A stretch of 44,982 bases of DNA from a virus. Of this stretch, positions 28,696-36,926 are shown one piece after another; the stretch's first letter is position 1; the number at the start of each line of letters is the position of its first letter. The notes beneath the pieces are model-generated. The model ran no database searches. It was not told where the DNA came from and saw nothing but the letters and a program-made list of their open reading frames with translations. A program made the position numbers and the translations under genes. The DNA is taken from positions 1 to 44,982 of the IMG/VR virus record IMGVR_UViG_3300045988_064885; one strand, 5' to 3'.

Positions 28696-29580
28696 ATGAA
28701 ACAATTAGTAGTAATTAATAATAATCAAATTGTTGTATCTAGTAAAGACCTAGCAGAACATTTTGGAAAACAACATAAGCATGTTATAGAAAATATAAGA
28801 GATATTTTATCAGCCGAAAATTCGGCCAATGAATTTTTCCATGAAGAATCATATTCTTACAATGGTAGACGGTTGCCAATGTATTTAATGAACCGTGATG
28901 GCTTTTCACTATTAGCCATGGGATTTACAGGCAAGAAAGCATTGCAATGGAAGTTAAAATATATTGAAGCTTTCAATGAAATGGAAGAAACATTAAAACA
29001 AGGCTATTTAGAAGAGCCTGTAAACACAAGTGAACTACATTGCAAGACATATAAAGGTGTACCTGTCATAACCATTGGTGATTTTGCAGAAATAGTAAAG
29101 AGAAATAGAACAAGTATTCTATGGCATTTAAAAGATAAAGGCTTGTCATATCAACTATTGGAAAAGGAAGAAGTAACTGCTTATAAGGAAGAAAATAACA
29201 TTCCTTTACATAGTGCTATTTCCAAACTAATTGTATTCACAGAATCTACGGCATATAAACTAACTTGTATTATGTACAATAATGCAGATCCTATTAATTT
29301 AGAAATTGCTAAATATTTTAATAGACAACCTGTAGCACCAGTTAAGTCTGTAGTAGCCATTGAAGAAAAAATAGGCATTGATTATGAAAGTGTTAAAGAA
29401 TACATAGAAGAAATGGAAACAAATATATCATTGATGAGAGGTATGGTGAAACATTTAACAGAGTTTAAACGTACAAGAGAAGAACAAACTTATCAAATGA
29501 AACTAATCCGTGAAATAGGGTTTAATATTTTTGATAATACGAGTGCGTTAGAAAGAGAAGTTATGAGTATTCTTAAGTAA
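28696..29580 (+). CDS. Rha-family phage regulatory protein (N-terminal Rha/KilA-N-like DNA-binding domain plus an unknown C-terminal domain)
   Basis: The N-terminal segment ISSKDLAEHFGKQHKHVIENIRDI...GRRLPMYLMNRDGFSLLAMGFTGKKALQWKLKYIEAFNEME is typical of the Phage_pRha domain. Confidence 0.7.
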   Translation: MKQLVVINNNQIVVSSKDLAEHFGKQHKHVIENIRDILSAENSANEFFHEESYSYNGRRLPMYLMNRDGFSLLAMGFTGKKALQWKLKYIEAFNEMEETLKQGYLEEPVNTSELHCKTYKGVPVITIGDFAEIVKRNRTSILWHLKDKGLSYQLLEKEEVTAYKEENNIPLHSAISKLIVFTESTAYKLTCIMYNNADPINLEIAKYFNRQPVAPVKSVVAIEEKIGIDYESVKEYIEEMETNISLMRGMVKHLTEFKRTREEQTYQMKLIREIGFNIFDNTSALEREVMSILK

Positions 29581-29610
29581 TAAAATAATTATTTACAACT
29601 GAAAAGCAAA

Positions 29611-29656
29611 AGAGCCTACTAACTTAGAAAATATCTAGGTTGGTAGGCTCTTTTTT
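29611..29656 (+). terminator. Intrinsic terminator T2, a paralogue of T1
   Basis: A 13-bp stem AGAGCCTACTAAC/GTTGGTAGGCTCT, the loop TTAGAAAATATCTAG, then TTTTTT. It is about 85% identical to T1 and carries a compensatory stem change. Confidence 0.7.
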
Positions 29657-29680
29657 GTTTGTAAAAATCAAAATAAATAC

Positions 29681-29709
29681 TTGACTTTATACACGATAAA
29701 GGGTATAAT
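29681..29709 (+). promoter_or_regulatory. Near-consensus promoter of accessory cassette B (-35 TTGACT, 17 nt, -10 TATAAT)
   Basis: Hexamers at 29681-29686 and 29704-29709. Confidence 0.6.
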
Positions 29710-29732
29710 ATAATTGTAAGGAGGTGATGATA

Positions 29733-29825
29733 GTGGACATAATAGAAAAGCTAACAAGTTTAGCAAATGCGCTGACGCCACTGGTACTGGCACTAGCAAT
29801 ACTAAAACTTGTTAGCAAGGAGTAG
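29733..29825 (+). CDS. Small hydrophobic peptide (30 aa), candidate membrane toxin/holin-like peptide
   Basis: GTG follows AAGGAGG at 8 nt; ATG 29727 is an in-frame alternative start. The product is VDIIEKLTSLANALTPLVLALAILKLVSKE. A GGCGGG/CCCGCC hairpin follows. Confidence 0.35.
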   Translation: MDIIEKLTSLANALTPLVLALAILKLVSKE

Positions 29826-29890
29826 TAAAAAGCAGGCGGGTGAAAGCCCCGCCACCTTTTCAACATCATTGTAAATCAACGAGGTGAATT

Positions 29891-29971
29891 ATGCAATATA
29901 TAGAATGGTTGATTAATATAGTAACTATTATTGTTTTGATATTAGCTGTTAAACGTTTAGTTAGAAGGTGA
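29891..29971 (+). CDS. Small hydrophobic peptide (26 aa), candidate type-I-toxin-like membrane peptide
   Basis: ATG follows GAGGTGA. The product is MQYIEWLINIVTIIVLILAVKRLVRR, a single TM with a basic tail. Its stop overlaps the next start (TGATG). Confidence 0.4.
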   Translation: MQYIEWLINIVTIIVLILAVKRLVRR

Positions 29972-30183
29972 TGAAATTGAAATTTGAATTAGATGATATA
30001 ATGACTACACAAGAAGCTGCAGAACGTTGGAATGTTACTGCTGATTCTCTTAAACAAAACTGTAGAGGTCGTGTGAAGAACGGATTTAAAGAAGGCGAGT
30101 TTAAGAAGTCGGGGAAAATGTGGCTAGTTACACGTCAAGGAATGGAAAGACTATACGGTGAAGAAGTGGATCGTTCTATATAA
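29971..30183 (+). CDS. Small helix-turn-helix DNA-binding protein adjacent to attP (possible excisionase/regulator)
   Basis: MTTQEAAERWNVTADSLKQN...KMWLVTRQGMERLYG resembles MerR/excisionase-type wHTH proteins. The track start GTG 29968 is also possible. Confidence 0.5.
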   Translation: MKLKFELDDIMTTQEAAERWNVTADSLKQNCRGRVKNGFKEGEFKKSGKMWLVTRQGMERLYGEEVDRSI

Positions 30184-30198
30184 TGGATATATTATATA

Positions 30199-30217
30199 TG
30201 ACATCATTTTGACATCA
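30199..30217 (+). repeat. Two direct TGACATCA repeats 11 bp apart (putative integrase arm-type sites, left arm of attP)
   Basis: Copies at 30199-30206 and 30210-30217. Confidence 0.5.
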
Positions 30218-30335
30218 ATTTATATAAAAATATAGTAAAATATACAACTATATATATATTAATAAAGTAGGTAACTACCGCATTTGTTGGTTTTGTAAAC
30301 GTGTTTTAAATGCCACGCCATCTTGAGGGGGTGGT

Positions 30336-30377
30336 GAGCGTATGCTCGTGAGGGTTCAAGTCCCTCCAACCGCACCA
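30336..30377 (+). tRNA. 3'-terminal fragment of a class II (long variable arm) tRNA ending in CCA; putative attP core
   Basis: Variable-arm hairpin GAGC-gtat-GCTC. T arm GAGGG-TTCAAGT-CCCTC. Acceptor 3' strand CAACCGC, discriminator A, then CCA. No matching 5' acceptor strand (GCGGTTG) occurs upstream, so this is not a complete gene. Confidence 0.6.
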
Positions 30378-30387
30378 AGCTGATTAA

Positions 30388-30425
30388 ATAAGGGCTTACA
30401 GGTAATTCTGTAAGCCCTTATTTTT
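30388..30425 (+). terminator. Intrinsic terminator directly after the tRNA fragment
   Basis: A 13-bp stem ATAAGGGCTTACA/TGTAAGCCCTTAT, an 8-nt loop, then a T-run. Confidence 0.65.
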
Positions 30426-30428
30426 ATT

Positions 30429-30472
30429 TGACATCATAAAGTCTTGCGTGGTTTGACATCATTTTGACATCA
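30429..30472 (+). repeat. Three direct TGACATCA repeats (putative integrase arm-type sites, right arm of attP)
   Basis: Copies at 30429-30436, 30454-30461 and 30465-30472. The last two are 11 bp apart, and the last one overlaps the int stop codon. Confidence 0.5.
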
Positions 30473-31543
30473 GAATATTTTAGAAATACGTTCTACGATG
30501 TCATCTTCCATTTTAGGTGTCACATGTGAGTAAGTATCCATCGTTTCTTGGAATGAAGCATGCCCTAGACGTTCCTGTATGGCTTTCATATTGGCCCCAT
30601 TTTCAATGAGAAGGGTGGCGTGGGTATGTCTAGTACCGTGCATGGTAAAAGAAGGCTTACCAATTAAATTGGCGTATTTCTTACATAGTTTGCTGACTTC
30701 ATCGGGACAACGAGGAGCGCCTTTTATACCAGGGAATACAAGGTTATTATTAATCCAGTTCAAGGTTTTAATTCTGCGTTTGTCTATGACTGTTTTATGC
30801 TTCATGAGTTCCTGGAGTGTTTCCGTATCAATGGCAATTATCCGTTTTGAGGATGTGGTTTTAGTTGTATTGGATATAACTGCAGTAGATCCGATTTTGA
30901 GGGCAGTTTGTGAAATGGATATAGTTGATTTCTTGAAATCGATATCCGACCATCGTAAGCCTAATAATTCAGACCGACGCATACCTGTTGCAAATGCTAA
31001 TTTAAATAGAGCATGATGTTCTGTATTTGATATATTAGATAAGAAATCTTTTACTTCATCTGCAGATAACGTTACCATATGACGGACTTTAACCTGTTTT
31101 GGTCGGTCTATGTTTTTCATATAGTTTTTAGGGATGATGTCATCTTTTACCGCCTGCTCTAATATGGAGCCTAGAATTGTCATGGTGTAGGATATAGTCC
31201 TTGATGATAATCCATCCATTGATTCAAAAACATACCGTAATGTATTAGGTTTAATTTCAGCTAACTTTACACAGCCGATTTTATCTCTGATATAGCGATT
31301 GATAATGCCTGTATAGCTTTGATATGTGGCAGGGGTTATAGTCTTTTCCTTTAGTTGTAACCATATATTAATCCAGGTGTTTAATGAAATTGTATCATCG
31401 AAATTAGCACATGCTTGATTTGTATTTACGTATTTCTCCATGGCTTCTATGGCAGCTTTCTTGGTAGTGCCATAAAAGTATTTACGCTTACCGTTTATCA
31501 TCTTTGATACCTGGTAGCGCCCATCTGCTCGTTTTTTTGGCAT
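30470..31543 (-). CDS. int: Tyrosine integrase (phage integrase family)
   Basis: 357 aa. The N-terminal Arm/SAM-like region begins RADGRYQV. Other motifs are FATGMRRSELLGLRWSDI, HGTRHTHATLL and LGHASFQETMDTYSH. It lies adjacent to the tRNA-fragment attP. Confidence 0.9.
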   Translation of the reverse strand: MPKKRADGRYQVSKMINGKRKYFYGTTKKAAIEAMEKYVNTNQACANFDDTISLNTWINIWLQLKEKTITPATYQSYTGIINRYIRDKIGCVKLAEIKPNTLRYVFESMDGLSSRTISYTMTILGSILEQAVKDDIIPKNYMKNIDRPKQVKVRHMVTLSADEVKDFLSNISNTEHHALFKLAFATGMRRSELLGLRWSDIDFKKSTISISQTALKIGSTAVISNTTKTTSSKRIIAIDTETLQELMKHKTVIDKRRIKTLNWINNNLVFPGIKGAPRCPDEVSKLCKKYANLIGKPSFTMHGTRHTHATLLIENGANMKAIQERLGHASFQETMDTYSHVTPKMEDDIVERISKIF

Positions 31544-31557
31544 AGCTCATCTCCTCG

Positions 31558-32832
31558 TTACTCGACTGATGTGTAACTATCGAATATAAAATCAATAGTC
31601 GCTCTAATTGAAGGGTTGGCTCCTTTTATTTTGATTAATTTAAACGCTTTTATGCCTACACTTCTTATTGGTGTAACCAGTAACGCCGCAAGAAAACTGT
31701 GAGTGGCGGTTTTAACATTAGAAAAATCTAATACGACAGTTTGGCCTTTTGCTAAAGCCGGTAGAATCTGTTTGTCTCGCCTATTAATAGCTTCATATTT
31801 GACTTCGCAATTTTCTCCACAATAGTTATTCATATCTATCGTTATTTCTACTTCTGTAGGCTTATTATTGCGAGCCTCTACTTCTTGTTTGGCTTTAGCT
31901 CGTAAGTCTTCTAGTTCTTTACTAAAATTAAACGATCTAAATTTATCAAAACCTATTGTCATGTAGACGAATGTACCCGGCCACGCACGTCGTAAAGTAT
32001 CTGAAGTGATGTCCGTTGGAGAGATGTGCAAAAGCCCTGTGCCAGAAACTATATAGGTATCGGCTTCCAGTTTTTTACCTAAATTTGATGACAAGAATAG
32101 CCCCATGCCAGCGTTATTTTGTGCGCTATAAGGGCCCTTTGGAGCACCAAATGTTCCCGATATTTCCGGTTTTATAGCTTCTTCTAAAGCTGTTGTATCG
32201 GAAGAAAATGGAGGATATGTTTGTTCTAAGTGGCTTTTAATACCCACGCCTAAATCCGCTACGATAAACGATAATTGGTTTTTATCACGGTACCAGTTGA
32301 ATTGTAGTAAAGAAGGAATTTGTGGATTATATCCGTGTTCTAAAGTGTTATATAATAGCTCGGAAACAATATACCGTAAAGTATCTTCGTGTCCGGATAT
32401 GAGATCCATATCAATTTGTGAAGTATATTGTAGTATTTTGCCAATAGCCGAAGATACGTCTGTTGTTTGATTTCTAATGGCAAACATAGGCTTGTCGTAA
32501 ACGGTGTTGAAGTTTTCATTACTATCTTCTAATACTTTATAGCAACCACTTCCGCCGATACGCTGCCACATTTTTCGTAATGCTGTATTCCCATCAATGT
32601 TAAAGTATATATAGGTTCCTTTGCTTTTTAAAAACCATAGATACTGGATGAGTAGGGATAGCGCTTGATAATTGGCACTGATACACGCGCGGCCGTCAAT
32701 GATTATAGAAGGTCCTTCGAAATTCCAATCAAAGATGGATAGATAGGCATTGAAGTCAACAATATTATTATTTTTAAAAGATAAAGTTCTAGGTAATTTT
32801 ATAATTGGCACGCCTTTTCTAGTTGTTCTCAA
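31558..32832 (-). CDS. GHKL (histidine-kinase-like) ATPase protein with a C-terminal STAS-like (DUF4325-type) domain; function unknown
   Basis: TTG start 8 nt after AGGAGG. The N-box-like segment is ELLYNTLEHG, G1-like is ADLGVGI and G2-like is NNAGMGLF. The C-terminal segment GQTVVLDFSNVKTATHSFLAALL...IKIKGANPSIRATIDFIF resembles a DUF4325 STAS-like fold. It sits between the ImmA-like gene and int. Confidence 0.75.
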   Translation of the reverse strand: MRTTRKGVPIIKLPRTLSFKNNNIVDFNAYLSIFDWNFEGPSIIIDGRACISANYQALSLLIQYLWFLKSKGTYIYFNIDGNTALRKMWQRIGGSGCYKVLEDSNENFNTVYDKPMFAIRNQTTDVSSAIGKILQYTSQIDMDLISGHEDTLRYIVSELLYNTLEHGYNPQIPSLLQFNWYRDKNQLSFIVADLGVGIKSHLEQTYPPFSSDTTALEEAIKPEISGTFGAPKGPYSAQNNAGMGLFLSSNLGKKLEADTYIVSGTGLLHISPTDITSDTLRRAWPGTFVYMTIGFDKFRSFNFSKELEDLRAKAKQEVEARNNKPTEVEITIDMNNYCGENCEVKYEAINRRDKQILPALAKGQTVVLDFSNVKTATHSFLAALLVTPIRSVGIKAFKLIKIKGANPSIRATIDFIFDSYTSVE

Positions 32833-32853
32833 TCTTGATTCCTCCTATTTCCG

Positions 32854-32883
32854 TTGACACGGATGACAAGTATTTGGTATACT
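32854..32883 (+). promoter_or_regulatory. Strong plus-strand promoter antisense to the lysogeny operon (-35 TTGACA, 18 nt, extended -10 TGgTATACT)
   Basis: TTGACA at 32854-32859, TG at 32875-32876 and TATACT at 32878-32883. Confidence 0.55.
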
Positions 32884-32889
32884 CGACTT

Positions 32890-33014
32890 GTAAACATAAT
32901 AAATGCGTAGAGACATAATCGTGAACGGAATGTTCGTCTCTCAGAAAAGAATTAAAGGAAATTATATTTTCCCCCTACATAGACCCTCACTTATAAGTGA
33001 GGGTCTTTTCCTTT
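32890..33014 (+). ncRNA. Candidate ~125-nt antisense small RNA (promoter to first terminator)
   Basis: No RBS-preceded ORF is present. There is an internal bulged hairpin GAGAC...GAAC-ggaat-GTTC-GTCTC. It ends at a perfect 13-bp palindromic hairpin plus a T-rich tail. Confidence 0.35.
32981..33014 (+). terminator. Plus-strand intrinsic terminator 1 (AGACCCTCACTTA/TAAGTGAGGGTCT followed by TTTTCCTTT)
   Basis: A perfect 26-nt palindrome followed by a T-rich tract on the plus strand only. Confidence 0.6.
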
Positions 33015-33022
33015 ATCACAAA

Positions 33023-33057
33023 GCCTCTTATCCCATAGTAGGGTAGGAGGCCTTTTT
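33023..33057 (+). terminator. Plus-strand intrinsic terminator 2 (may also act on the minus-strand ImmA-like transcript)
   Basis: GCCTCTTATCCC-atagta-GGGTAGGAGGC (one bulge, one G-U pair), then CTTTTT. Confidence 0.5.
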
Positions 33058-33065
33058 ATAATCCC

Positions 33066-33341
33066 TTATAACACTGATACATAATGATGGTAGAAATCTA
33101 TATTCTCCAGTTCGGTATCATCAATACATGTTCGACGGACCATTTGCTCTACTAGATTAACGTGATGGTCTAAATAGAAGTCGTCATTAATAATATGCAT
33201 TAATTCATGTTTAATTTCCTCTCTCATGCGATCATGAGGGAGGTTTTTGTTTATATAGATATTATGAGTATCTATATCTTCACATTCCTCTGACACTGCA
33301 TTGGCATGTGGCAAGTCGCAGTAAATCAAATTTACAACCAA
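33066..33341 (-). CDS. ImmA/IrrE-like zinc metallopeptidase (short form)
   Basis: It carries the HEXXH motif HELMHI and lies immediately downstream of, and co-oriented with, the XRE repressor. The length is 91 aa. Confidence 0.55.
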   Translation of the reverse strand: MVVNLIYCDLPHANAVSEECEDIDTHNIYINKNLPHDRMREEIKHELMHIINDDFYLDHHVNLVEQMVRRTCIDDTELENIDFYHHYVSVL

Positions 33342-33362
33342 TATAACACTCTCCCTTGTGTA

Positions 33363-33740
33363 TTATTTGTTTTTTAACTTTAAAAGCTCAATATATTCGA
33401 CAGCTTTTTCTAAATCCTCCTTGCTTATATCTTTAGCGGCAGAGAAGAGCATACGAGCCCCTGGACGTGTGCGTAGGTACTCGGCAAATTCGGCCGCTTC
33501 ACGGTCGGTGTAATAGCCGTCAGTATATTTCTCTACTAGTTCAGATTTAGGAACGCCAAAATAGTTTGCCAATAGTTCAATTTTATCGATCCTGGGATAT
33601 GTATTTCCCTTTACCCAATCGGTAAACGTAGTATACTTCAAACCTAAATCAGCGCATATTCTATTGCGATCAATTCCGCGACTATCCATTAGTCGTTGAA
33701 TATTCTCAGCCATAATAGCCTTGTTACCTAAATCACTCAT
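33363..33740 (-). CDS. CI-like XRE-family repressor
   Basis: The HTH segment is RNRICADLGLKYTTFTDWVKGNTYPRIDKIELLANYFGV. It is divergent from a Cro-like gene across an operator-rich region. Confidence 0.8.
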   Translation of the reverse strand: MSDLGNKAIMAENIQRLMDSRGIDRNRICADLGLKYTTFTDWVKGNTYPRIDKIELLANYFGVPKSELVEKYTDGYYTDREAAEFAEYLRTRPGARMLFSAAKDISKEDLEKAVEYIELLKLKNK

Positions 33741-33782
33741 AAGAACCTCTCAAAACTAGAATATATTAATTAATACACCTAT

Positions 33783-33811
33783 ATATTACGATATTTTCGT
33801 AACAAAATCAA
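33783..33811 (-). promoter_or_regulatory. Putative repressor-gene promoter (minus strand: -35 TTGATT, 17 nt, -10 TAATAT)
   Basis: The plus-strand complements are AATCAA at 33806-33811 and ATATTA at 33783-33788. Operator O1 fills the spacer and the -10. Confidence 0.4.
33786..33802. promoter_or_regulatory. Operator-like palindrome O1: TTACGA-tattt-TCGTAA
   Basis: Perfect 6-bp inverted arms with a 5-bp spacer. Confidence 0.55.
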
Positions 33812-33850
33812 TATTTTACGGAAATTTTACGATAGTTTATGTTTGGTTTA

Positions 33851-33879
33851 TAGACATTACGGATAAACCGTAGTAGAAT
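33851..33879 (+). promoter_or_regulatory. Putative early (Cro) promoter (-35 TAGACA, 17 nt, -10 TAGAAT)
   Basis: Hexamers at 33851-33856 and 33874-33879. Operator O3 occupies the spacer exactly. Confidence 0.45.
33857..33873. promoter_or_regulatory. Operator-like site O3: TTACGG-ataaa-CCGTAG
   Basis: It has the same 6-5-6 architecture as O1, with 5 of 6 arm positions symmetric. Confidence 0.5.
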
Positions 33880-33923
33880 GATGACTGTAAACAAGATGTG
33901 AGTATCGAGAAAGGAGGTAGCTT

Positions 33924-34112
33924 ATGAAGTACACATTAAAGATGTTAAGGGCTTCAAAAAATTGGTCTCAACTTACGGCATCTAAAGCGATTGGAGTGTC
34001 TGTTGATACTTGGGGAAATTGGGAGCGCAAACGCTCTTACCCTGATGTTCCTCACATAAAAAAGATACAAGAAGTATTTGACGTAGCGTATGACGACATT
34101 ATTTTTTTATAG
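33924..34112 (+). CDS. Cro-like XRE-family HTH protein
   Basis: 62 aa. The HTH segment is WSQLTASKAIGVSVDTWGNWERKRSYPDVPHIKKIQEVF. ATG follows AAAGGAGG. Confidence 0.7.
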   Translation: MKYTLKMLRASKNWSQLTASKAIGVSVDTWGNWERKRSYPDVPHIKKIQEVFDVAYDDIIFL

Positions 34113-34116
34113 TTAG

Positions 34117-34133
34117 TTACGGTTAAACCGTTA
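34117..34133. promoter_or_regulatory. Operator-like site O4: TTACGG-ttaaa-CCGTTA, just downstream of cro
   Basis: It has the same 6-5-6 architecture. The inner ACGG/CCGT is perfectly symmetric. Confidence 0.4.
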
Positions 34134-34146
34134 CGGAGGACAGGTT

Positions 34147-34371
34147 ATGAAAGAATTCGTAAAAGATGAAAGACAAGGGAATATGAACAGTAGAAAAGAA
34201 TACACCATAAAAATAAAAGTAGATACATACGAATTAGATGACGCGATCAAAAAGCTAAAAAGGCTTAATAAGTTAGCAAAAAAAAAATTGCCACGTGTAA
34301 CATTTAGCACACATGGCAATTTAAACGAAAAGGAATTTATTGAGCTTCTAGGCAAGTACCAATGGAAATAG
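34147..34371 (+). CDS. Hypothetical basic protein (74 aa)
   Basis: ATG follows GGAGGA. Its 3' end overlaps the convergent minus-strand gene by 35 nt. Confidence 0.45.
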   Translation: MKEFVKDERQGNMNSRKEYTIKIKVDTYELDDAIKKLKRLNKLAKKKLPRVTFSTHGNLNEKEFIELLGKYQWK

Positions 34372-34693
34372 CAATTACTGATGATGTATCTAAAAGCAAT
34401 GAACCAAGTTCTTGAACTGATCCAGATGAGATTAATTTAACATCCTTTAGTAGCAATGAATTCTCATCAAACAATAGATGCCTTTCAGAATTTGGGACAT
34501 AATTTTTATTTAACGCTTTTTCTGTACTTTTTAGGCATTGATAGAGCAGCTTGGATTGAATATCAGACTCATCACTATATACAGGAAGCGCAGACAATAG
34601 ACCAGCATTAGTAAGTAATATAAGCCGATTGCCATTTAATTCATTAGCTTCTAAAGAAACAGCAAATGCAATGATTTTCTTATGCATATCCAT
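34337..34693 (-). CDS. Hypothetical protein (118 aa), transcribed against the early operon
   Basis: ATG 34693 follows AAAGGAGG at 7 nt. The TTG start in the track lies inside the RBS and is unlikely. Confidence 0.5.
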   Translation of the reverse strand: MDMHKKIIAFAVSLEANELNGNRLILLTNAGLLSALPVYSDESDIQSKLLYQCLKSTEKALNKNYVPNSERHLLFDENSLLLKDVKLISSGSVQELGSLLLDTSSVIAISIGTCLEAQ

Positions 34694-35402: not shown

Positions 35403-36926
35403 ATGAACAAAACAGTATTAATGACAGCAACAATCGCATCTTTAGCAGTAAACGTAATGGCTGCTAATAACAATACTTTGGTAGGCACGGACAATAACAT
35501 TACAGCTACTTCTCATAGCTCTTTGGTATCTGGGTACCAAAATACAATAAACGCTAACAACGCACTAGCATTTGGTACTAACAATACCGTTACTGGTGAA
35601 AACGGATTCGCAGGTGGCAATAATGCTACTGCTGCAGGACGTAATAGCTTTGCATTCGGTTCTCATGCCGAAAGTTTGGTAGAGTACACAGTAGCCATCG
35701 GTAATCAAGCTCGTGTGTCTAGTTATGACAGTGTAGCTATCGGCAACGGCGCCTTCGTATCCGGTGAATCTAGTGTGGCTCTAGGTCGTACCAACAACGT
35801 GACTGGCGAAAACTCCGTAGCAATCGGTGCTAACAATGGCACAGTAGCAGGCGGACAAAGTGCCGTTGTAGGGTACAACAATAAAATCGGTGCTGACAAA
35901 GAGCAGTTAGTATTTGGTTCTAACTCCGAATCTAGTGGCCAAGGAGCCCTAGTATTTGGTACACACTCCAAAGCCGTAGCAATGGACGCCGTTGCATTCG
36001 GTAACAACACGATTGCGGACAAATCGAATGCAGTTGCCATCGGTACAAATTCTGTTACCGATGATGCGGTAGGCGTTGAAGGCATTACCATTAATGGCAC
36101 GAAACACGTATTTGCAGGGGAGCAACCTGCTAGCGTAGTAAGTTTTGGCGCTAAAGCCCGTGCAGGTGCAGGCGGGGTAACTCAATACAACCGCCAACTC
36201 ACGAATGTGAGCGCTGGTCAAATCTCCGCTGATTCATTAGACGCTGTGAACGGCTCCCAGTTGTTCGCTGCAATTGATGAAATCGAAACAAACGCTAAAC
36301 AAATTAACAAAAACAAGCAAAACATTAAAGATGTGGCAATCGGTTTGAACATGTTAGGCGATGTGGTGAATGATCATGAACAAGCTATTGCAGGTAATAC
36401 TACTGCAATCACCAACAACACCAACCGCATCAATGGTAATACAAATGCGATTAATTCCCTTGGCCAAAACGTAGCTACTAATACAGCTGATATCCGTGTA
36501 CTTGAAAAGGTAGCGGATAACCACGAAGGGCGCATTACTGATTTGGAACATCGTTCTACCAGCATGGCTAATGACATTAACAACAAAGTCAACAATCTTG
36601 GCCAACGTGTTAACAAGTTAGGCGCAAGTTCCGCAGCACTAGCAGGTCTGCACCCCCTTGAATATAACAAGAATGACAAAGGTAGTTTTGCTATTAGCTA
36701 TGGTCGTTACCGTAACGCTAACGCAATTGCACTTGGCGCATTCTATAGCCCTAACGAAAAAGTACGCTTAGGATTCGGCATCACTTTAGGTGGTGAAACT
36801 CAATTCAATATTAATGCTGCATTCCGCACTGGTAGAGGCTCTGAATATGAACCACAAGCTAAGAATGGTGAGCTCGAACAACTTCGCCAGGAAGTAGAAA
36901 CACTTAAAGCGTTAGTTAATAAATAA
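35403..36926 (+). CDS. Trimeric autotransporter adhesin (YadA/Hag-like): signal peptide, head repeats, stalk, YadA-type membrane anchor and a C-terminal coiled-coil extension
   Basis: The signal peptide is MNKTVLMTATIASLAVNVMA. There are repeated S(V/A)A(I/F)G..A.....SVA(I/L)G head motifs. The neck is SLDAVNGSQLFA. The anchor is ALAGLHPLEYNKNDKGSFAISYGRYRNANAIALGAFYSPNEKVRLGFGITLGGETQFNINAAFR. A further ~30 aa follows: ELEQLRQEVETLKALVNK. Confidence 0.85.
   Translation: MNKTVLMTATIASLAVNVMAANNNTLVGTDNNITATSHSSLVSGYQNTINANNALAFGTNNTVTGENGFAGGNNATAAGRNSFAFGSHAESLVEYTVAIGNQARVSSYDSVAIGNGAFVSGESSVALGRTNNVTGENSVAIGANNGTVAGGQSAVVGYNNKIGADKEQLVFGSNSESSGQGALVFGTHSKAVAMDAVAFGNNTIADKSNAVAIGTNSVTDDAVGVEGITINGTKHVFAGEQPASVVSFGAKARAGAGGVTQYNRQLTNVSAGQISADSLDAVNGSQLFAAIDEIETNAKQINKNKQNIKDVAIGLNMLGDVVNDHEQAIAGNTTAITNNTNRINGNTNAINSLGQNVATNTADIRVLEKVADNHEGRITDLEHRSTSMANDINNKVNNLGQRVNKLGASSAALAGLHPLEYNKNDKGSFAISYGRYRNANAIALGAFYSPNEKVRLGFGITLGGETQFNINAAFRTGRGSEYEPQAKNGELEQLRQEVETLKALVNK

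What the first reader, a model, noticed from the sequence alone, without database searches (positions are those of the whole stretch)
31558..32832. GHKL-ATPase / STAS-like fusion protein inserted into the lysogeny operon between the ImmA-like protease gene and the integrase
What the sequence shows:
- The 424-aa ORF has a TTG start with an ideal AGGAGG RBS.
- It carries histidine-kinase-like ATPase motifs: N-box ELLYNTLEHG, G1 DLGVGI and G2 GMGLF.
- It has no recognisable histidine phosphotransfer (HisKA-type) domain and no TM segments.
- Its C-terminus resembles the STAS-like DUF4325 fold (VVLDFSNVKTATHSFLAALL...).
- The N-terminal ~120 aa may be a second STAS-like module (IIIDGRACISANYQALSLLIQYLWFLKSKG). 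That assignment is weak.
- The gene order is cI-like repressor, ImmA-like protease, this gene, int, all co-oriented. It should therefore be expressed in the lysogen.

Background: RsbW/SpoIIAB-type GHKL kinases act on STAS partners in partner-switching circuits.

Inference: a single polypeptide combining both modules, at a classic moron or immunity position, has two candidate roles.
- It could be a prophage-encoded anti-phage or superinfection-exclusion factor.
- It could be a sensor feeding into ImmA-mediated repressor cleavage.

I cannot name a characterised defence system with this architecture.
Basis: partly seen in the sequence, partly recalled or inferred. Interest (0 to 1): 0.75.

Follow-up and report, generated by a model that had tools for sequence, protein, structure and literature searches.

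The report
Fused kinase–STAS switch in prophage defence slot
A Veillonella prophage carries a single protein that fuses a recently described DNA-damage-sensing kinase (VapK type) to its own STAS-domain substrate (VapS type) but has no toxin partner; it sits, with a small structured RNA, in a slot where sister phages carry known anti-phage genes, so it is probably a new, effector-less variant of a known immune signalling module.

Summary
ORF 31558-32832 (minus strand, 424 aa, TTG start, AGGAGG RBS) is real and highly conserved. It has three domains: an N-terminal STAS-like fold, a SpoIIAB-type GHKL kinase with intact ATP motifs, and a C-terminal DUF4325 STAS-like domain with a near-universal Ser379 at the phospho-acceptor position.

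A characterised relative now exists. VapK (STAS-GHKL kinase activated by single-stranded DNA) and VapS (DUF4325 STAS antitoxin) form the VapKSC system (Chambers et al., EMBO J 2026), a relative of CapK/CapS. The window protein is a VapK-VapS fusion. It lacks the VapC toxin, the VapS inhibitory tail and any DNA-binding domain.

It is the cargo of a ~1.5 kb cassette inserted exactly between the ImmA-like gene and int. In 80 sister prophages the same slot holds AbiD, a MazF-like protein, SoFic, an OLD-type ATPase, lipoproteins, or nothing. Homologues elsewhere are solitary genes scattered across many phyla.

Best reading: a prophage-borne defence or abortive-infection phospho-switch whose output is unknown. 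A role in ImmA-mediated induction is unlikely. Novelty: new variant of a known kind. Interest 0.6.

The parts
31558..32832 (-). Gene X: 424-aa STAS-like / GHKL kinase / DUF4325 fusion (VapK-VapS-like), TTG start, stop codon included
   Evidence: ORF listing. Pfam, PHROG and PADLOC scans: phrog_5816 matches the full length at E 1e-102. Homologues. AF2 model with pLDDT 83 and pTM 0.70.
32841..32846 (-). Ribosome-binding site AGGAGG, 8 nt upstream of the TTG start
   Evidence: Read directly from the sequence.
32473..32832 (-). N-terminal STAS-like domain (residues ~1-120). The loop C50-I-S-A-N-Y55-Q56 corresponds to the VapK loop that carries the ssDNA-stacking F54.
   Evidence: AF2 domain model plus Foldseek STAS hits. 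hhalign to VapK covers this region. VapK numbering taken from the paper's AF3 file. W36, Y55, Q56, W66 and W89 are invariant.
31933..32460 (-). GHKL ATPase/kinase domain (residues ~125-300): N-box E158/N162/H166, G1 D193-G195-G197, lid insert with invariant S225-G-T-F228, G2 G242-G244-L245
   Evidence: Pfam HATPase_c_2 and HATPase_c. NCBIfam anti-sigma F factor. PDB sequence and fold matches to SpoIIAB. Conservation.
31561..31860 (-). C-terminal DUF4325 STAS-like domain (residues ~325-424)
   Evidence: Pfam DUF4325 E 1.3e-9. VapS is itself DUF4325, E 2.7e-17. Phage DUF4325 proteins match by fold.
31696..31701 (-). Codons for His378-Ser379, at the N-terminus of STAS helix alpha2: the predicted phospho-acceptor site
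   Evidence: Invariant in the 31-sequence alignment. [H/Q]-S is present in about 97% of 174 near-full-length homologues. Ser379 aligns with the CapS phosphosite S54. His378 aligns with the VapS phosphosite S48.
32854..32883 (+). Strong divergent promoter TTGACA-N18-TATACT with TG extension (11 of 12 consensus positions), abutting the X ribosome-binding site
   Evidence: Promoter scan. Both hexamers are conserved while the spacer varies in 12 Veillonella X loci. The same arrangement is present in L001.
32890..33016 (+). About 125-nt small RNA: 5' conserved hairpin HP1 (covariance-model match 32892-32961), a second hairpin, and the intrinsic terminator 32981-33006 plus T run
   Evidence: The fold has z -4.4 against shuffles. 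The alignment fold shows compensatory changes in 6 of 12 pairs. Covariance model R1 hits. No Rfam family matches.
33023..33051 (+). Second terminator-like hairpin just downstream of the ImmA-like stop codon. It probably also closes the cI-ImmA transcript.
   Evidence: Terminator scan.
31545..33065 (.). Variable cassette (sRNA module plus X) bounded by the ImmA-like stop codon and the int start codon
   Evidence: blastn against sister prophages: homology stops at about 33051-33083 and resumes at 31544. The sRNA module 33065-32841 is shared with a MazF-like cassette in L131.
33066..33341 (-). ImmA/IrrE-like (Peptidase_M78) short metalloprotease gene, with an HELMH motif
   Evidence: Pfam E 2e-5, above cut-off. 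phrog_20936.
33363..33740 (-). cI-like HTH repressor without an S24 domain (CapH-like)
   Evidence: Pfam HTH_26 and HTH_3. PADLOC capH E 5e-6.
30470..31543 (-). Tyrosine integrase; its start codon lies 14 nt after the X stop codon
   Evidence: Pfam Phage_integrase E 5e-31.

Best explanation
What it is (shown by computation):
- Gene X encodes a single-chain relative of the VapK kinase plus its VapS substrate.
- It has an N-terminal STAS-like sensor domain and a SpoIIAB-type GHKL serine kinase, which together are VapK-like.
- A long helix tethers these to a DUF4325 STAS-like domain, which is VapS-like. That domain has a near-universal Ser379 at the position phosphorylated in SpoIIAA and CapS, adjacent to the residue (His378) that aligns with the VapS phosphosite.
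- It is the cargo of a ~1.5 kb cassette that also carries a divergently transcribed ~125-nt structured sRNA.
- The cassette occupies the defence-cargo slot between the ImmA-like gene and int of a Veillonella prophage.

How it most likely works (inferred from CapK/CapS, VapKSC and SpoIIAB/SpoIIAA):
- In the resting lysogen the unphosphorylated C-terminal STAS domain is engaged. It is either docked on the kinase or holding a partner.
- A nucleic-acid cue produced by an infecting phage or by DNA damage activates the kinase. By analogy with CapK and VapK, this cue would be single-stranded DNA bound in the groove between the N-terminal STAS and GHKL domains.
- The kinase phosphorylates Ser379, in cis or across a dimer, and breaks that interface.
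- The freed surface then acts on a target that is not encoded next to the gene. The result would be growth arrest or a block to the incoming phage, that is, abortive infection or superinfection exclusion.
- The adjacent sRNA promoter overlaps the X translation-start region. The sRNA probably keeps X expression or activity low.

The effector step is unknown.
For: Identity:
- Pfam DUF4325 and HATPase_c_2 hits.
- SpoIIAB is the best match in the PDB by sequence and by fold (prob 1.0).
- The N-terminal domain has a STAS fold.
- hhalign of the family against VapK gives 92% probability, E 5e-7, over 249 columns covering both STAS and GHKL.
- VapK and X residues 10-299 hit the same PHROG family, phrog_3364 (E 5e-33 and E 5e-27).
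- VapS is a DUF4325 protein (E 2.7e-17).
- A PIN-family survey had already noted VapC-like genes coupled to DUF4325 genes (PMC5499597).
- Catalytic motifs and the [H/Q]-Ser motif are conserved in about 97% of 174 homologues.

Mechanistic precedent (PMC13373217):
- CapK and VapK are activated by ssDNA.
- They phosphorylate a conserved STAS serine.
- Phosphorylation breaks a STAS-mediated interface.
- VapKSC protects against a phage.

Defence context:
- 80 sister prophages have an integrase >=94% identical.
- The same slot holds Abi_2/AbiD in 20, a MazF-like protein in 17, SoFic in 3, an AAA_15/21 ATPase in 4, PDC-S02-like proteins, X in 8 plus one deletion remnant, or nothing in 4.
- Cassette limits were mapped by blastn.
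- In Calothrix and Nostoc, X lies in an operon with a type I methyltransferase, specificity subunits, HerA and a protein kinase.
- A PADLOC DrmA profile carries an X-like N-terminal region.
- Other prophage contexts are known. A split version lies between cI and int in Francisella phage KIRK.

Distribution:
- The family is patchy: 74 of about 185,000 species genomes, across many phyla.
- The gene is mostly solitary.
Against: - No experiment exists for any member of the fused family.
- PADLOC v2 has no model for it apart from the partial DrmA match.
- There is no effector domain and no conserved partner gene, so the killing or blocking step is a guess.
- About 8 Acidobacteria loci have the gene inside a housekeeping operon, between an acyl-CoA dehydrogenase gene and MeaB. 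That is not a defence-island context.
- The residue that aligns with the VapS phosphosite is His378, not Ser379. The Ser assignment rests on the CapS register.
- The ssDNA-stacking aromatic residue of VapK/CapK has no unambiguous counterpart.
- Expression in the lysogen is not shown. No clear sigma-70 promoter for X was found.
Confidence: 0.5

Rival explanations
1. RNA-controlled toxin-antitoxin or addiction-like cassette. The kinase is intrinsically toxic when derepressed. The divergent sRNA is its antidote or repressor. The pair mainly stabilises itself or the prophage, and any phage protection is a by-product.
For: - The sRNA accompanies X in every Veillonella and Lachnospiraceae locus across X clades 57-100% identical and three unrelated genomic contexts.
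- The sRNA hairpin shows compensatory changes.
- Its promoter overlaps the X ribosome-binding site or start codon.
- One sister phage carries an internal deletion of X with the sRNA kept, as expected for a costly gene.
- VapKSC itself is a toxin-antitoxin system.
Against: - No consistent complementarity was found between the sRNA and the X translation-start region.
- The sRNA also sits next to a MazF-like protein or p127+AbiD cargo, so it is not specific to X.
- No sRNA match was found in the more distant X loci, although the covariance model is narrow.
- No toxicity data exist.
Confidence: 0.17
2. Lysogeny-switch regulator. X senses DNA damage and feeds into prophage induction, for example by acting on the cI-like repressor, the ImmA-like protease or integrase/excision control. 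This would parallel the way CapK/CapS derepress operons after DNA damage.
For: - X lies between the ImmA-like gene and int and is tightly coupled to int by a 14-nt spacer.
- CapK/CapS and CapH/CapP are DNA-damage-responsive regulators.
- The window repressor hits the PADLOC capH model.
Against: - Only 8 of 80 sister prophages with the same cI, ImmA-like gene and int carry X. The others have unrelated defence cargo or an empty slot.
- Close homologues sit beside an S24-type cI or in non-prophage chromosomal loci.
- X has no DNA-binding domain.
Confidence: 0.1
3. Classical partner-switching anti-sigma factor. After auto-phosphorylation releases the tethered STAS domain, the SpoIIAB-like domain sequesters a host or phage sigma factor and reprogrammes transcription.
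For: - SpoIIAB is the closest solved relative, and the N-box resembles it closely (SELLYNTLEHG against SEAVTNAIIHG).
- The STAS partner domains match RsbS, RsbV and SpoIIAA by fold.
Against: - No sigma factor or PP2C phosphatase gene is linked in any of the 68 full-length non-redundant loci.
- The nearer homologues VapK and CapK do not act on sigma factors.
Confidence: 0.1
4. Counter-defence decoy. A phage-encoded VapK/VapS mimic soaks up ssDNA or phosphate flux so that host ssDNA-sensing immune regulators (CapK, CapP, VapKSC) stay silent.
For: - The gene is phage-borne.
- It lacks any effector.
- It retains the sensor and substrate modules of host immune regulators.
Against: - It sits in the lysogeny-side slot together with bona fide defence genes.
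- It is also found in chromosomes, in a restriction-modification/HerA operon and fused to DrmA-like proteins.
- Its catalytic residues are fully conserved.
- It is absent from 50,697 sequenced phage genomes by tblastn.
Confidence: 0.06

Closest known systems
VapKSC toxin-antitoxin/defence system (VapK kinase, VapS STAS antitoxin, VapC PIN toxin; Chambers et al., EMBO J 2026, PMC13373217)
   Same: - X residues ~20-300 are homologous to VapK across both the STAS and GHKL domains: hhalign 92% probability, and a shared PHROG family, phrog_3364.
- The X C-terminal domain belongs to the same Pfam family as VapS (DUF4325).
- A hydroxyl residue at the start of STAS helix alpha2 is conserved.
- The system is found on mobile elements and near defence genes.
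   Different: - The kinase and STAS substrate are one polypeptide.
- There is no VapC/PIN gene in the window or in 76 non-redundant loci.
- The VapS C-terminal helix that blocks VapC is absent.
- The residue aligned with VapS Ser48 is His378, and the conserved Ser is one position later.
- A divergent sRNA is attached.
CapK/CapS DNA-damage-responsive regulators of immune operons (same paper)
   Same: - The same logic applies: a STAS-GHKL kinase plus a STAS substrate with a phospho-serine immediately before an aromatic residue (CapS S54-F55, X S379-F380).
- The family's GHKL domain aligns with CapK (hhalign E 2e-4).
   Different: - The kinase part has no N-terminal HTH.
- The STAS part has no winged-helix DNA-binding domain.
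- X is not placed upstream of an immune operon.
- CapS is not a DUF4325 member, and it shows no detectable profile similarity to X.
SpoIIAB/SpoIIAA and RsbW/RsbV partner-switching modules
   Same: - They are the best solved structural relatives of the kinase domain.
- STAS antagonists match both flanking domains by fold.
- The N-box, G1 and G2 motifs are of the Ser-kinase anti-sigma type.
   Different: - No sigma factor or PP2C phosphatase partner is present.
- The kinase carries two tethered STAS-like domains.
- The ATP lid carries a ~12-residue insert with an invariant SGTF motif.
Prophage and satellite defence hotspots (for example the P2/P4 hotspots, lambda rexAB/sieB positions)
   Same: - The flanks (ImmA-like gene and int) are conserved.
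- The cargo is interchangeable and includes AbiD, SoFic, a MazF-like protein and ATPase genes in sister phages.
   Different: - This is a Veillonella (Negativicutes) phage lineage.
- The slot lies directly upstream of int, so the cargo is probably transcriptionally coupled to int.
DISARM DrmA (PADLOC model PDLC02567)
   Same: Profile positions 47-383 of this 1750-position model align with X residues 56-411 (E 6.5e-9). Some DrmA-like proteins therefore carry an X-like N-terminal module.
   Different: X has no helicase or DUF1998-associated region, and no other DISARM genes are nearby.

Membership tests
VapKSC | Kinase with an N-terminal STAS domain followed by a GHKL domain (VapK) | tested here: met
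   hhalign of the X family against VapK: 92% probability, E 5e-7, X columns 38-312 against VapK 16-286. Both hit phrog_3364. STAS fold of the N-terminal domain.
VapKSC | Separate small STAS (DUF4325) protein with a conserved Ser/Thr and a C-terminal helix that inhibits VapC (VapS) | tested here: not met
   A DUF4325 domain is present but fused to the kinase. The protein ends 3 residues after the last STAS helix (H407-421 of 424), so there is no inhibitory tail. Ser379 is conserved, but the residue aligned with VapS S48 is His378.
VapKSC | Adjacent VapC-like PIN nuclease toxin | tested here: not met
   tblastn of VapC against the window gave only chance hits (E 0.47). Against 76 non-redundant X loci there were no hits at E<=0.01. 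No conserved neighbour family exists.
VapKSC | Kinase activated by single-stranded DNA through an aromatic residue in the STAS/GHKL groove (VapK F54, CapK W68) | not testable with these tools
   VapK F54 lies in the loop HCRF54LRPN. The aligned X loop C50-I-S-A-N-Y55-Q56 has an invariant Tyr55 three residues away. Confirmation needs AF3 modelling with ssDNA or biochemistry.
CapK/CapS | HTH on the kinase and a winged HTH on the STAS substrate; transcriptional repressor upstream of an immune operon | tested here: not met
   No HTH or wHTH domain in Pfam. The downstream gene is int. CapS shows no profile similarity. CapK aligns over the GHKL domain only, at 49% probability.
SpoIIAB/RsbW-type anti-sigma Ser kinases with STAS antagonists | GHKL fold with N-box Glu/Asn and G1 and G2 boxes; STAS partner with a phosphorylatable Ser at the start of helix alpha2 | tested here: met
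   (SpoIIAB prob 1.0; RsbS, RsbV and SpoIIAA prob 0.95-0.99). Invariant residues. Ser379 conservation.
SpoIIAB/RsbW-type anti-sigma Ser kinases with STAS antagonists | Cognate sigma factor and PP2C phosphatase in the module | tested here: inconclusive
   No conserved neighbour of any kind in 68 full-length non-redundant loci. The window was not scanned protein by protein for sigma factor or PP2C genes.
Two-component sensor histidine kinases | HisKA/DHp phospho-transfer domain with a conserved His upstream of the HATPase domain | tested here: not met
   No HisKA family in Pfam at E<=1. Histidine-kinase structures align only over the ATPase domain, with rmsd ~16 A over the whole chain.
DISARM DrmA | Large helicase protein with DrmB, DrmC and a methyltransferase nearby | tested here: not met
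   Only profile positions 47-383 of 1750 match. The protein is 424 aa. The neighbours are the ImmA-like gene and int.
Prophage defence-hotspot cargo | Optional gene between conserved flanks that in sister elements hold known defence systems | tested here: met
   80 sister prophages. Census of the slot. Cargo identified as AbiD, SoFic, PemK-like, AAA_15/21 and PDC-S02. Junctions mapped.

The most novel reading that the evidence does not exclude
X is a self-contained, one-protein immune switch with no classical effector domain.
- The nucleic-acid-activated kinase and its tethered STAS substrate are themselves the output. This could be toxic phosphorylation, or sequestration of a core host factor.
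- X is held in check by a dedicated, divergently transcribed structured sRNA.
- This sRNA module is a portable control head that can also be joined to other toxic cargo (MazF-like, AbiD) in prophage defence slots.
- Together these would be a new RNA-plus-kinase class of abortive-infection cassette.
Probability: 0.18. Interest if true: 0.8.

Novelty: new variant of a known kind. Interest (0 to 1): 0.6.

Why it matters
- The GHKL-kinase/STAS-substrate pair entered the anti-phage literature only in 2026 (CapK/CapS, VapKSC). There its output is obvious: a repressor or a PIN toxin.
- The family found here has the sensor, the kinase and the substrate in one chain and nothing else. Even so, it is conserved across many phyla and sits in a bona fide prophage defence hotspot.
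- If it protects cells, its output must be of a different kind. A 1.5-kb, single-gene cassette is an easy system in which to find out.
- It gives a first functional lead for Pfam DUF4325 and for PHROG families 5816, 3364 and 9989.
- It defines a rich, previously undescribed defence-cargo slot in phages of Veillonella, a major human oral and gut genus.
- It points to a new structured sRNA linked to toxic cargo.

Tried and rejected
- megablast of 30400-34200 against 50,697 phage records found no match.
- tblastn of X against the same phage records found no match. Against 72,556 plasmids there was one weak partial hit, in Phaeobacter. The family is therefore not in cultured phage or plasmid collections at this sensitivity.
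- The PADLOC scan gave no defence model other than a partial DrmA match.
- A PDB sequence search with the N-terminal domain profile found nothing. Only fold comparison revealed STAS.
- VapC/PIN partner: none in the window or in related loci.
- Conserved neighbour search by all-against-all BLAST over 76 non-redundant loci: only integrase (10 loci), a lineage-specific Acidobacteria operon, and HTH repressors. No partner gene emerged.
- CapS against the X family by hhalign: no similarity, so the C-terminal domain is VapS-like rather than CapS-like.
- sRNA as an antisense regulator of the cargo translation-start region: duplex energies were not consistently better than shuffles (z from +1.4 to -3.0 across 7 loci). 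Not supported.
- Rfam search of 29500-34500 found no family for the sRNA.
- A canonical sigma-70 promoter for X in the 140 nt upstream: none by regex in 10 loci. The only candidate is a weak 9/12 match at 32925-32896.
- His378 as a histidine-kinase-style phospho-acceptor was considered and set aside, because the position is Gln in the wider fused family while the Ser is kept.
- The inverted repeat HP1 as a protein operator rather than RNA was considered less likely, because the stems covary instead of keeping their sequence.
Full report
**1. The observation**

The ORF is at 31558..32832 on the minus strand. It is 424 aa and starts at the first possible start codon, TTG at 32832-32830. AGGAGG lies at 32846-32841, 8 nt upstream.

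Pfam finds DUF4325 ("STAS-like") at residues 355-409 (E 1.3e-9, 38 bits against a cut-off of 23). HATPase_c_2 at 149-257 scores E 3.6e-6, exactly at its cut-off. No HisKA domain is found. NCBIfam's best hit is the anti-sigma F factor SpoIIAB model, far below its cut-off.

The gene is real. The closest cluster scores E 1e-279 at 97% identity. 370 proteins score E<=1e-3 in the word-indexed database. An exhaustive search of the 50%-identity representatives finds 696 at E<=1e-3, 167 at 1e-10 and 37 at 1e-30.

- N-box: E158, N162, H166, G167.
- G1: D193, G195, G197.
- G2: G242, G244, L245.
- Also invariant: S225-G-T-F228 in the ATP lid, and H378-S379 in the C-terminal domain.

The flanking genes are as described:
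- a cI-like HTH protein (33363-33740), which also hits the PADLOC capH model;
- a 91-aa Peptidase_M78/ImmA-like protein with HELMH (33066-33341);
- a tyrosine integrase (30470-31543).

The window is a Veillonella prophage. X is 99% identical to a copy in an uncultured Veillonella genome.

**2. Fold**

AlphaFold2 with the 31-sequence alignment gives pLDDT 83 and pTM 0.70. Only the ATP-lid segment 226-241 is of low confidence.
- Foldseek against the PDB puts SpoIIAB first (prob 1.0, TM 0.58-0.66 on the target). It also returns the STAS proteins RsbS, RsbV and SpoIIAA at prob 0.95-0.99.
- A profile search of PDB sequences also gives SpoIIAB first (E 0.002).
- I modelled residues 1-128 separately (pLDDT 83). 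The hit list consists almost wholly of STAS domains: anti-sigma antagonists 3lkl (prob 0.95, rmsd 2.8 A) and 3oiz (0.93), and SLC26 STAS 5da0 (0.98).

The protein is STAS-like / GHKL / long helix (303-322) / STAS-like.

**3. What it is related to**

"DUF4325" appears in only three papers in the searchable full-text library.
- The genome table of Francisella phage KIRK shows a 293-aa hypothetical protein followed by a 112-aa DUF4325 protein between cI and int.

Searching for STAS plus anti-phage retrieved the key paper, Chambers et al., EMBO J 2026 (PMC13373217).
[quoted passage not shown] It phosphorylates Ser54 of CapS (STAS-wHTH), which breaks the CapS dimer and derepresses immune operons.
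- In the related VapKSC system, VapK (STAS-GHKL) is proposed to phosphorylate Ser48 of VapS (STAS plus a short tail). This releases the PIN toxin VapC. The operon protects against a phage.

I took the protein sequences from the paper's Appendix and tested them.
- VapS is a DUF4325 protein (E 2.7e-17).
- VapK hits phrog_3364 at E 4.9e-33. X residues 10-299 hit the same PHROG family at E 5.2e-27.
- hhalign of the X family against VapK gives 92% probability, E 5e-7, over 249 columns spanning both the STAS and GHKL domains.
- CapK aligns only over the GHKL domain (49% probability). CapS does not align at all.

X is therefore a fusion of a VapK-like kinase and a VapS-like STAS domain. The whole fused protein matches phrog_5816 (E 1e-102), a family of unknown function.

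**4. The phospho-acceptor**

The invariant H378-S379 pair lies at the N-terminus of helix 378-399. This is where SpoIIAA Ser58, CapS Ser54 and VapS Ser48 lie.
- In alignments that include the wider fused family (GHKL plus DUF4325 with other or divergent N-termini), the motif is [H/Q]-S-[F/Y/W/L].
- It is present in about 97% of 174 near-full-length homologues.
- CapS S54-F55 aligns with S379-F380. VapS S48 aligns with His378.

Because His is replaced by Gln in distant members while Ser is kept, Ser379 is the likely acceptor. This is an inference. Two natural S379N variants exist.

The N-terminal STAS-like domain has Asn54-Tyr55-Gln56 at the equivalent position, so it is not a substrate-type STAS. 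VapK Phe54, the ssDNA-stacking residue, lies in the loop HCRF54LRPN. That loop aligns with the X loop C50-I-S-A-N-Y55-Q56. The invariant Tyr55 may play this role, but I could not test it.

**5. What is missing**

- There is no VapC. tblastn finds nothing in the window or in 76 non-redundant X loci.
- The protein ends right after the last STAS helix, so the VapS tail that blocks VapC is absent.
- There is no HTH or wHTH domain.
- All-against-all comparison of the five genes on each side of X in 76 non-redundant loci finds no common partner. The most frequent neighbour is an integrase (10 loci).
- Only 19 of 68 full-length loci have a tightly linked co-oriented downstream gene, and these genes are unrelated to each other.

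X is a solitary gene.

**6. Context: a defence hotspot**

I fetched 80 viral contigs whose integrase is >=94% identical to the window's and classified what lies between the ImmA-like gene and int.

| Content of the slot | Loci (of 80) |
|---|---|
| Abi_2/AbiD, three variants | 20 |
| PemK/MazF-like 248-aa protein | 17 |
| Lipoproteins only | 14 |
| SWIM-like 368-aa protein (two of these also with SoFic) | 9 |
| X | 8 |
| X with an internal deletion | 1 |
| AAA_15/AAA_21 ATPase | 4 |
| Empty (about 280-340 nt) | 4 |
| SoFic alone | 1 |
| PDC-S02 or a related protein | 2 |

The identifications rest on Pfam and PADLOC:
- AbiD: E 1.6e-36 to 9e-60.
- SoFic: E 1e-111.
- PemK: E 1.6e-10.
- PDC-S02: E 1e-25.
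- The ATPase hits the PtuA, GajA and AriA models.

blastn shows that homology between the window and its sisters stops at 33051-33083 (the ImmA-like stop codon) and resumes at 31544 (the int start codon). X is therefore optional cargo in a slot that otherwise holds recognised anti-phage genes.

Other contexts point the same way:
- 71%-identical copies lie between an S24-type cI and int in a different phage.
- An Acinetobacter prophage carries a copy at its end, next to umuDC.
- In Calothrix and Nostoc the gene sits in an operon with a type I methyltransferase, specificity subunits, HerA and a protein kinase.
- A PADLOC DrmA profile has an X-like N-terminal region.

Contexts that do not fit a defence island:
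- 57%-identical copies lie in a small Veillonella chromosomal island between ileS and the leu operon.
- About 8 Acidobacteria loci place X between an acyl-CoA dehydrogenase gene and MeaB.

The family occurs in only 74 of about 185,000 species genomes, yet these span Negativicutes, Cyanobacteria, Acidobacteria, Proteobacteria, Nitrospirota, Verrucomicrobia, Leptospiraceae and others. This patchy pattern is that of a horizontally moving accessory gene.

**7. A small RNA belongs to the cassette**

The gap between the ImmA-like gene and X carries, on the plus strand:
- a near-consensus promoter, TTGACA-N18-TGnTATACT at 32854-32883, which abuts the X ribosome-binding site;
- two intrinsic terminators, at 32981-33006 and 33023-33051.

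The same arrangement stands next to the 71%-identical X of another phage and next to every Veillonella X examined, prophage or chromosomal. The hexamers are conserved and the spacers are variable.

The transcript starts with a conserved hairpin (outer stem GAGAC/GUCUC, inner 5-bp stem). Six of its 12 pairs show compensatory changes, for example GGGGC/GCCCC in L006. The 127-nt RNA folds with z = -4.4 against shuffles. It has no Rfam match.

I built a covariance model (R1) and searched with it.
- Among the 80 sister prophages it finds the hairpin only in the X-bearing loci, including the deletion remnant.
- It finds the hairpin in all X loci of the 57-72% identity clades and, weakly, next to a Lachnospiraceae X.
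- An exact-pattern scan of viral contigs, confirmed by covariance model R1, found five viral loci that have the RNA without X. In four the neighbouring cargo could be read: a MazF-like protein or p127+AbiD. The fifth lies at a contig end.
- In L131, identity to the window (98%) ends at 32841, exactly at the X ribosome-binding site. Cargo replacement probably left the RNA behind.

I found no consistent complementarity between the RNA and the cargo start regions, and no clear promoter for X itself. The RNA's role is open. Possibilities are promoter interference, an insulator against cI-operon read-through, or an RNA ligand or antidote for X.

**8. Mechanism**

Shown by computation:
- the three-domain architecture;
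- intact ATP-binding and catalytic motifs;
- a conserved Ser at the STAS phosphosite;
- homology to VapK plus VapS;
- cassette structure and hotspot position.

Inferred by analogy with CapK/CapS, VapKSC and SpoIIAB/SpoIIAA:
- A nucleic-acid cue, most likely ssDNA from phage replication or DNA damage, activates the kinase.
- Ser379 of the tethered STAS domain is phosphorylated.
- A STAS-mediated interface is broken, and a surface is released that acts on an unlinked target.

The final effector step is unknown. That is the main weakness and also the main point of interest.

I rate "prophage-borne defence/abortive-infection phospho-switch" at 0.5. The identity claim alone (VapK-VapS fusion) is about 0.85. 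The rivals are:
- an RNA-controlled toxin-antitoxin or addiction cassette (0.17);
- a lysogeny-switch regulator (0.10, disfavoured because the cassette is optional among phages with identical switch genes);
- a true anti-sigma factor (0.10);
- a counter-defence decoy (0.06).

**9. Novelty and score**

The kind is known since 2026: a GHKL kinase with a STAS substrate in bacterial immunity. This is a new variant. It is a single-chain fusion without a toxin or DNA-binding output. It is a solitary gene, it occupies a prophage hotspot, and it has an associated sRNA. The fused family has not been described in the searchable literature. Interest 0.6.

Noticed in passing
window 32854-33058 (+): A divergent near-consensus promoter, a ~125-nt structured small RNA and two terminators lie between the ImmA-like gene and X. 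The hairpin covaries. The RNA is present beside every Veillonella-type X locus and, in five viral loci, beside other cargo. It has no Rfam match.
   Followed up: partly
L138-L217 (sister prophages), slot equivalent to window 31545-33065: The slot between the ImmA-like gene and int is a rich defence hotspot in Veillonella phages. It holds AbiD (three variants), a MazF-like protein, SoFic, an AAA_15/21 ATPase, PDC-S02, lipoproteins, or nothing. A 368-aa SWIM-like protein (9 of 80 loci) and a 127-aa partner of AbiD have no Pfam or PADLOC hit. Both are candidate unknown defence genes.
   Followed up: partly
L143 / L133 (same contig), equivalent to window 31652-32801: One sister prophage carries an internal 1.15-kb deletion of X. 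It leaves the first ~10 and last ~31 codons, and the sRNA is intact. This suggests the gene is dispensable or costly.
   Followed up: yes
window 30350-30366 (+) and hairpin 30386-30423: A weak Rfam match (E 0.13) to the 3' end of tmRNA lies just downstream of int, followed by a strong terminator hairpin. Sister prophage contigs end about 150-250 nt past int. The attP core therefore probably targets the host ssrA gene.
   Followed up: no
L053, L056, L061, L062, L101, L105, L110 (Acidobacteria); L077 4448-9281 (Lysobacteraceae): In Acidobacteria, X lies between an acyl-CoA dehydrogenase gene and a MeaB GTPase gene, followed by an epimerase gene. In a Lysobacteraceae genome it overlaps the end of an IcmF-like MeaB-mutase fusion gene. 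This is a repeated, unexplained adjacency to MeaB-type genes in two phyla.
   Followed up: partly
L012 1582-21269 (Calothrix; also L050, L109): X is embedded in a long co-oriented operon. The operon has a type I methyltransferase, two specificity subunits (which also hit the MADS mad2 and mad5 models), HerA (mad8-like), a Ser/Thr protein kinase, and several large proteins with no Pfam or PADLOC hit, including a 1445-aa protein directly downstream of X.
   Followed up: partly
PADLOC model PDLC02567 (DrmA), profile positions 47-383: The N-terminal part of one DISARM DrmA profile aligns with almost the whole of X (residues 56-411, E 6.5e-9). This implies helicase proteins with an X-like module fused at the N-terminus. 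I did not retrieve such proteins.
   Followed up: no
proteins P0035 and P0060 (Veillonella chromosomal clade): Two natural variants have Asn instead of the otherwise conserved Ser379 (motif THNF). They could be phospho-dead alleles.
   Followed up: no
Francisella phage KIRK, genes Fhv_0046 and Fhv_0047 (PMC7924643): A 293-aa hypothetical protein followed by a 112-aa DUF4325 protein lies between the cI repressor and the integrase. This may be a split version of X at the same position in an unrelated phage. It is seen only in the paper's table and is too distant for tblastn.
   Followed up: no
window 35403-36926 (+): A 507-aa ORF lies in the early region of the phage. By eye, it has repeated NSVAIG-type motifs and a C-terminal anchor-like segment, reminiscent of YadA-type trimeric autotransporter adhesins. 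It may be a lysogenic-conversion gene. No tool was run on it.
   Followed up: no
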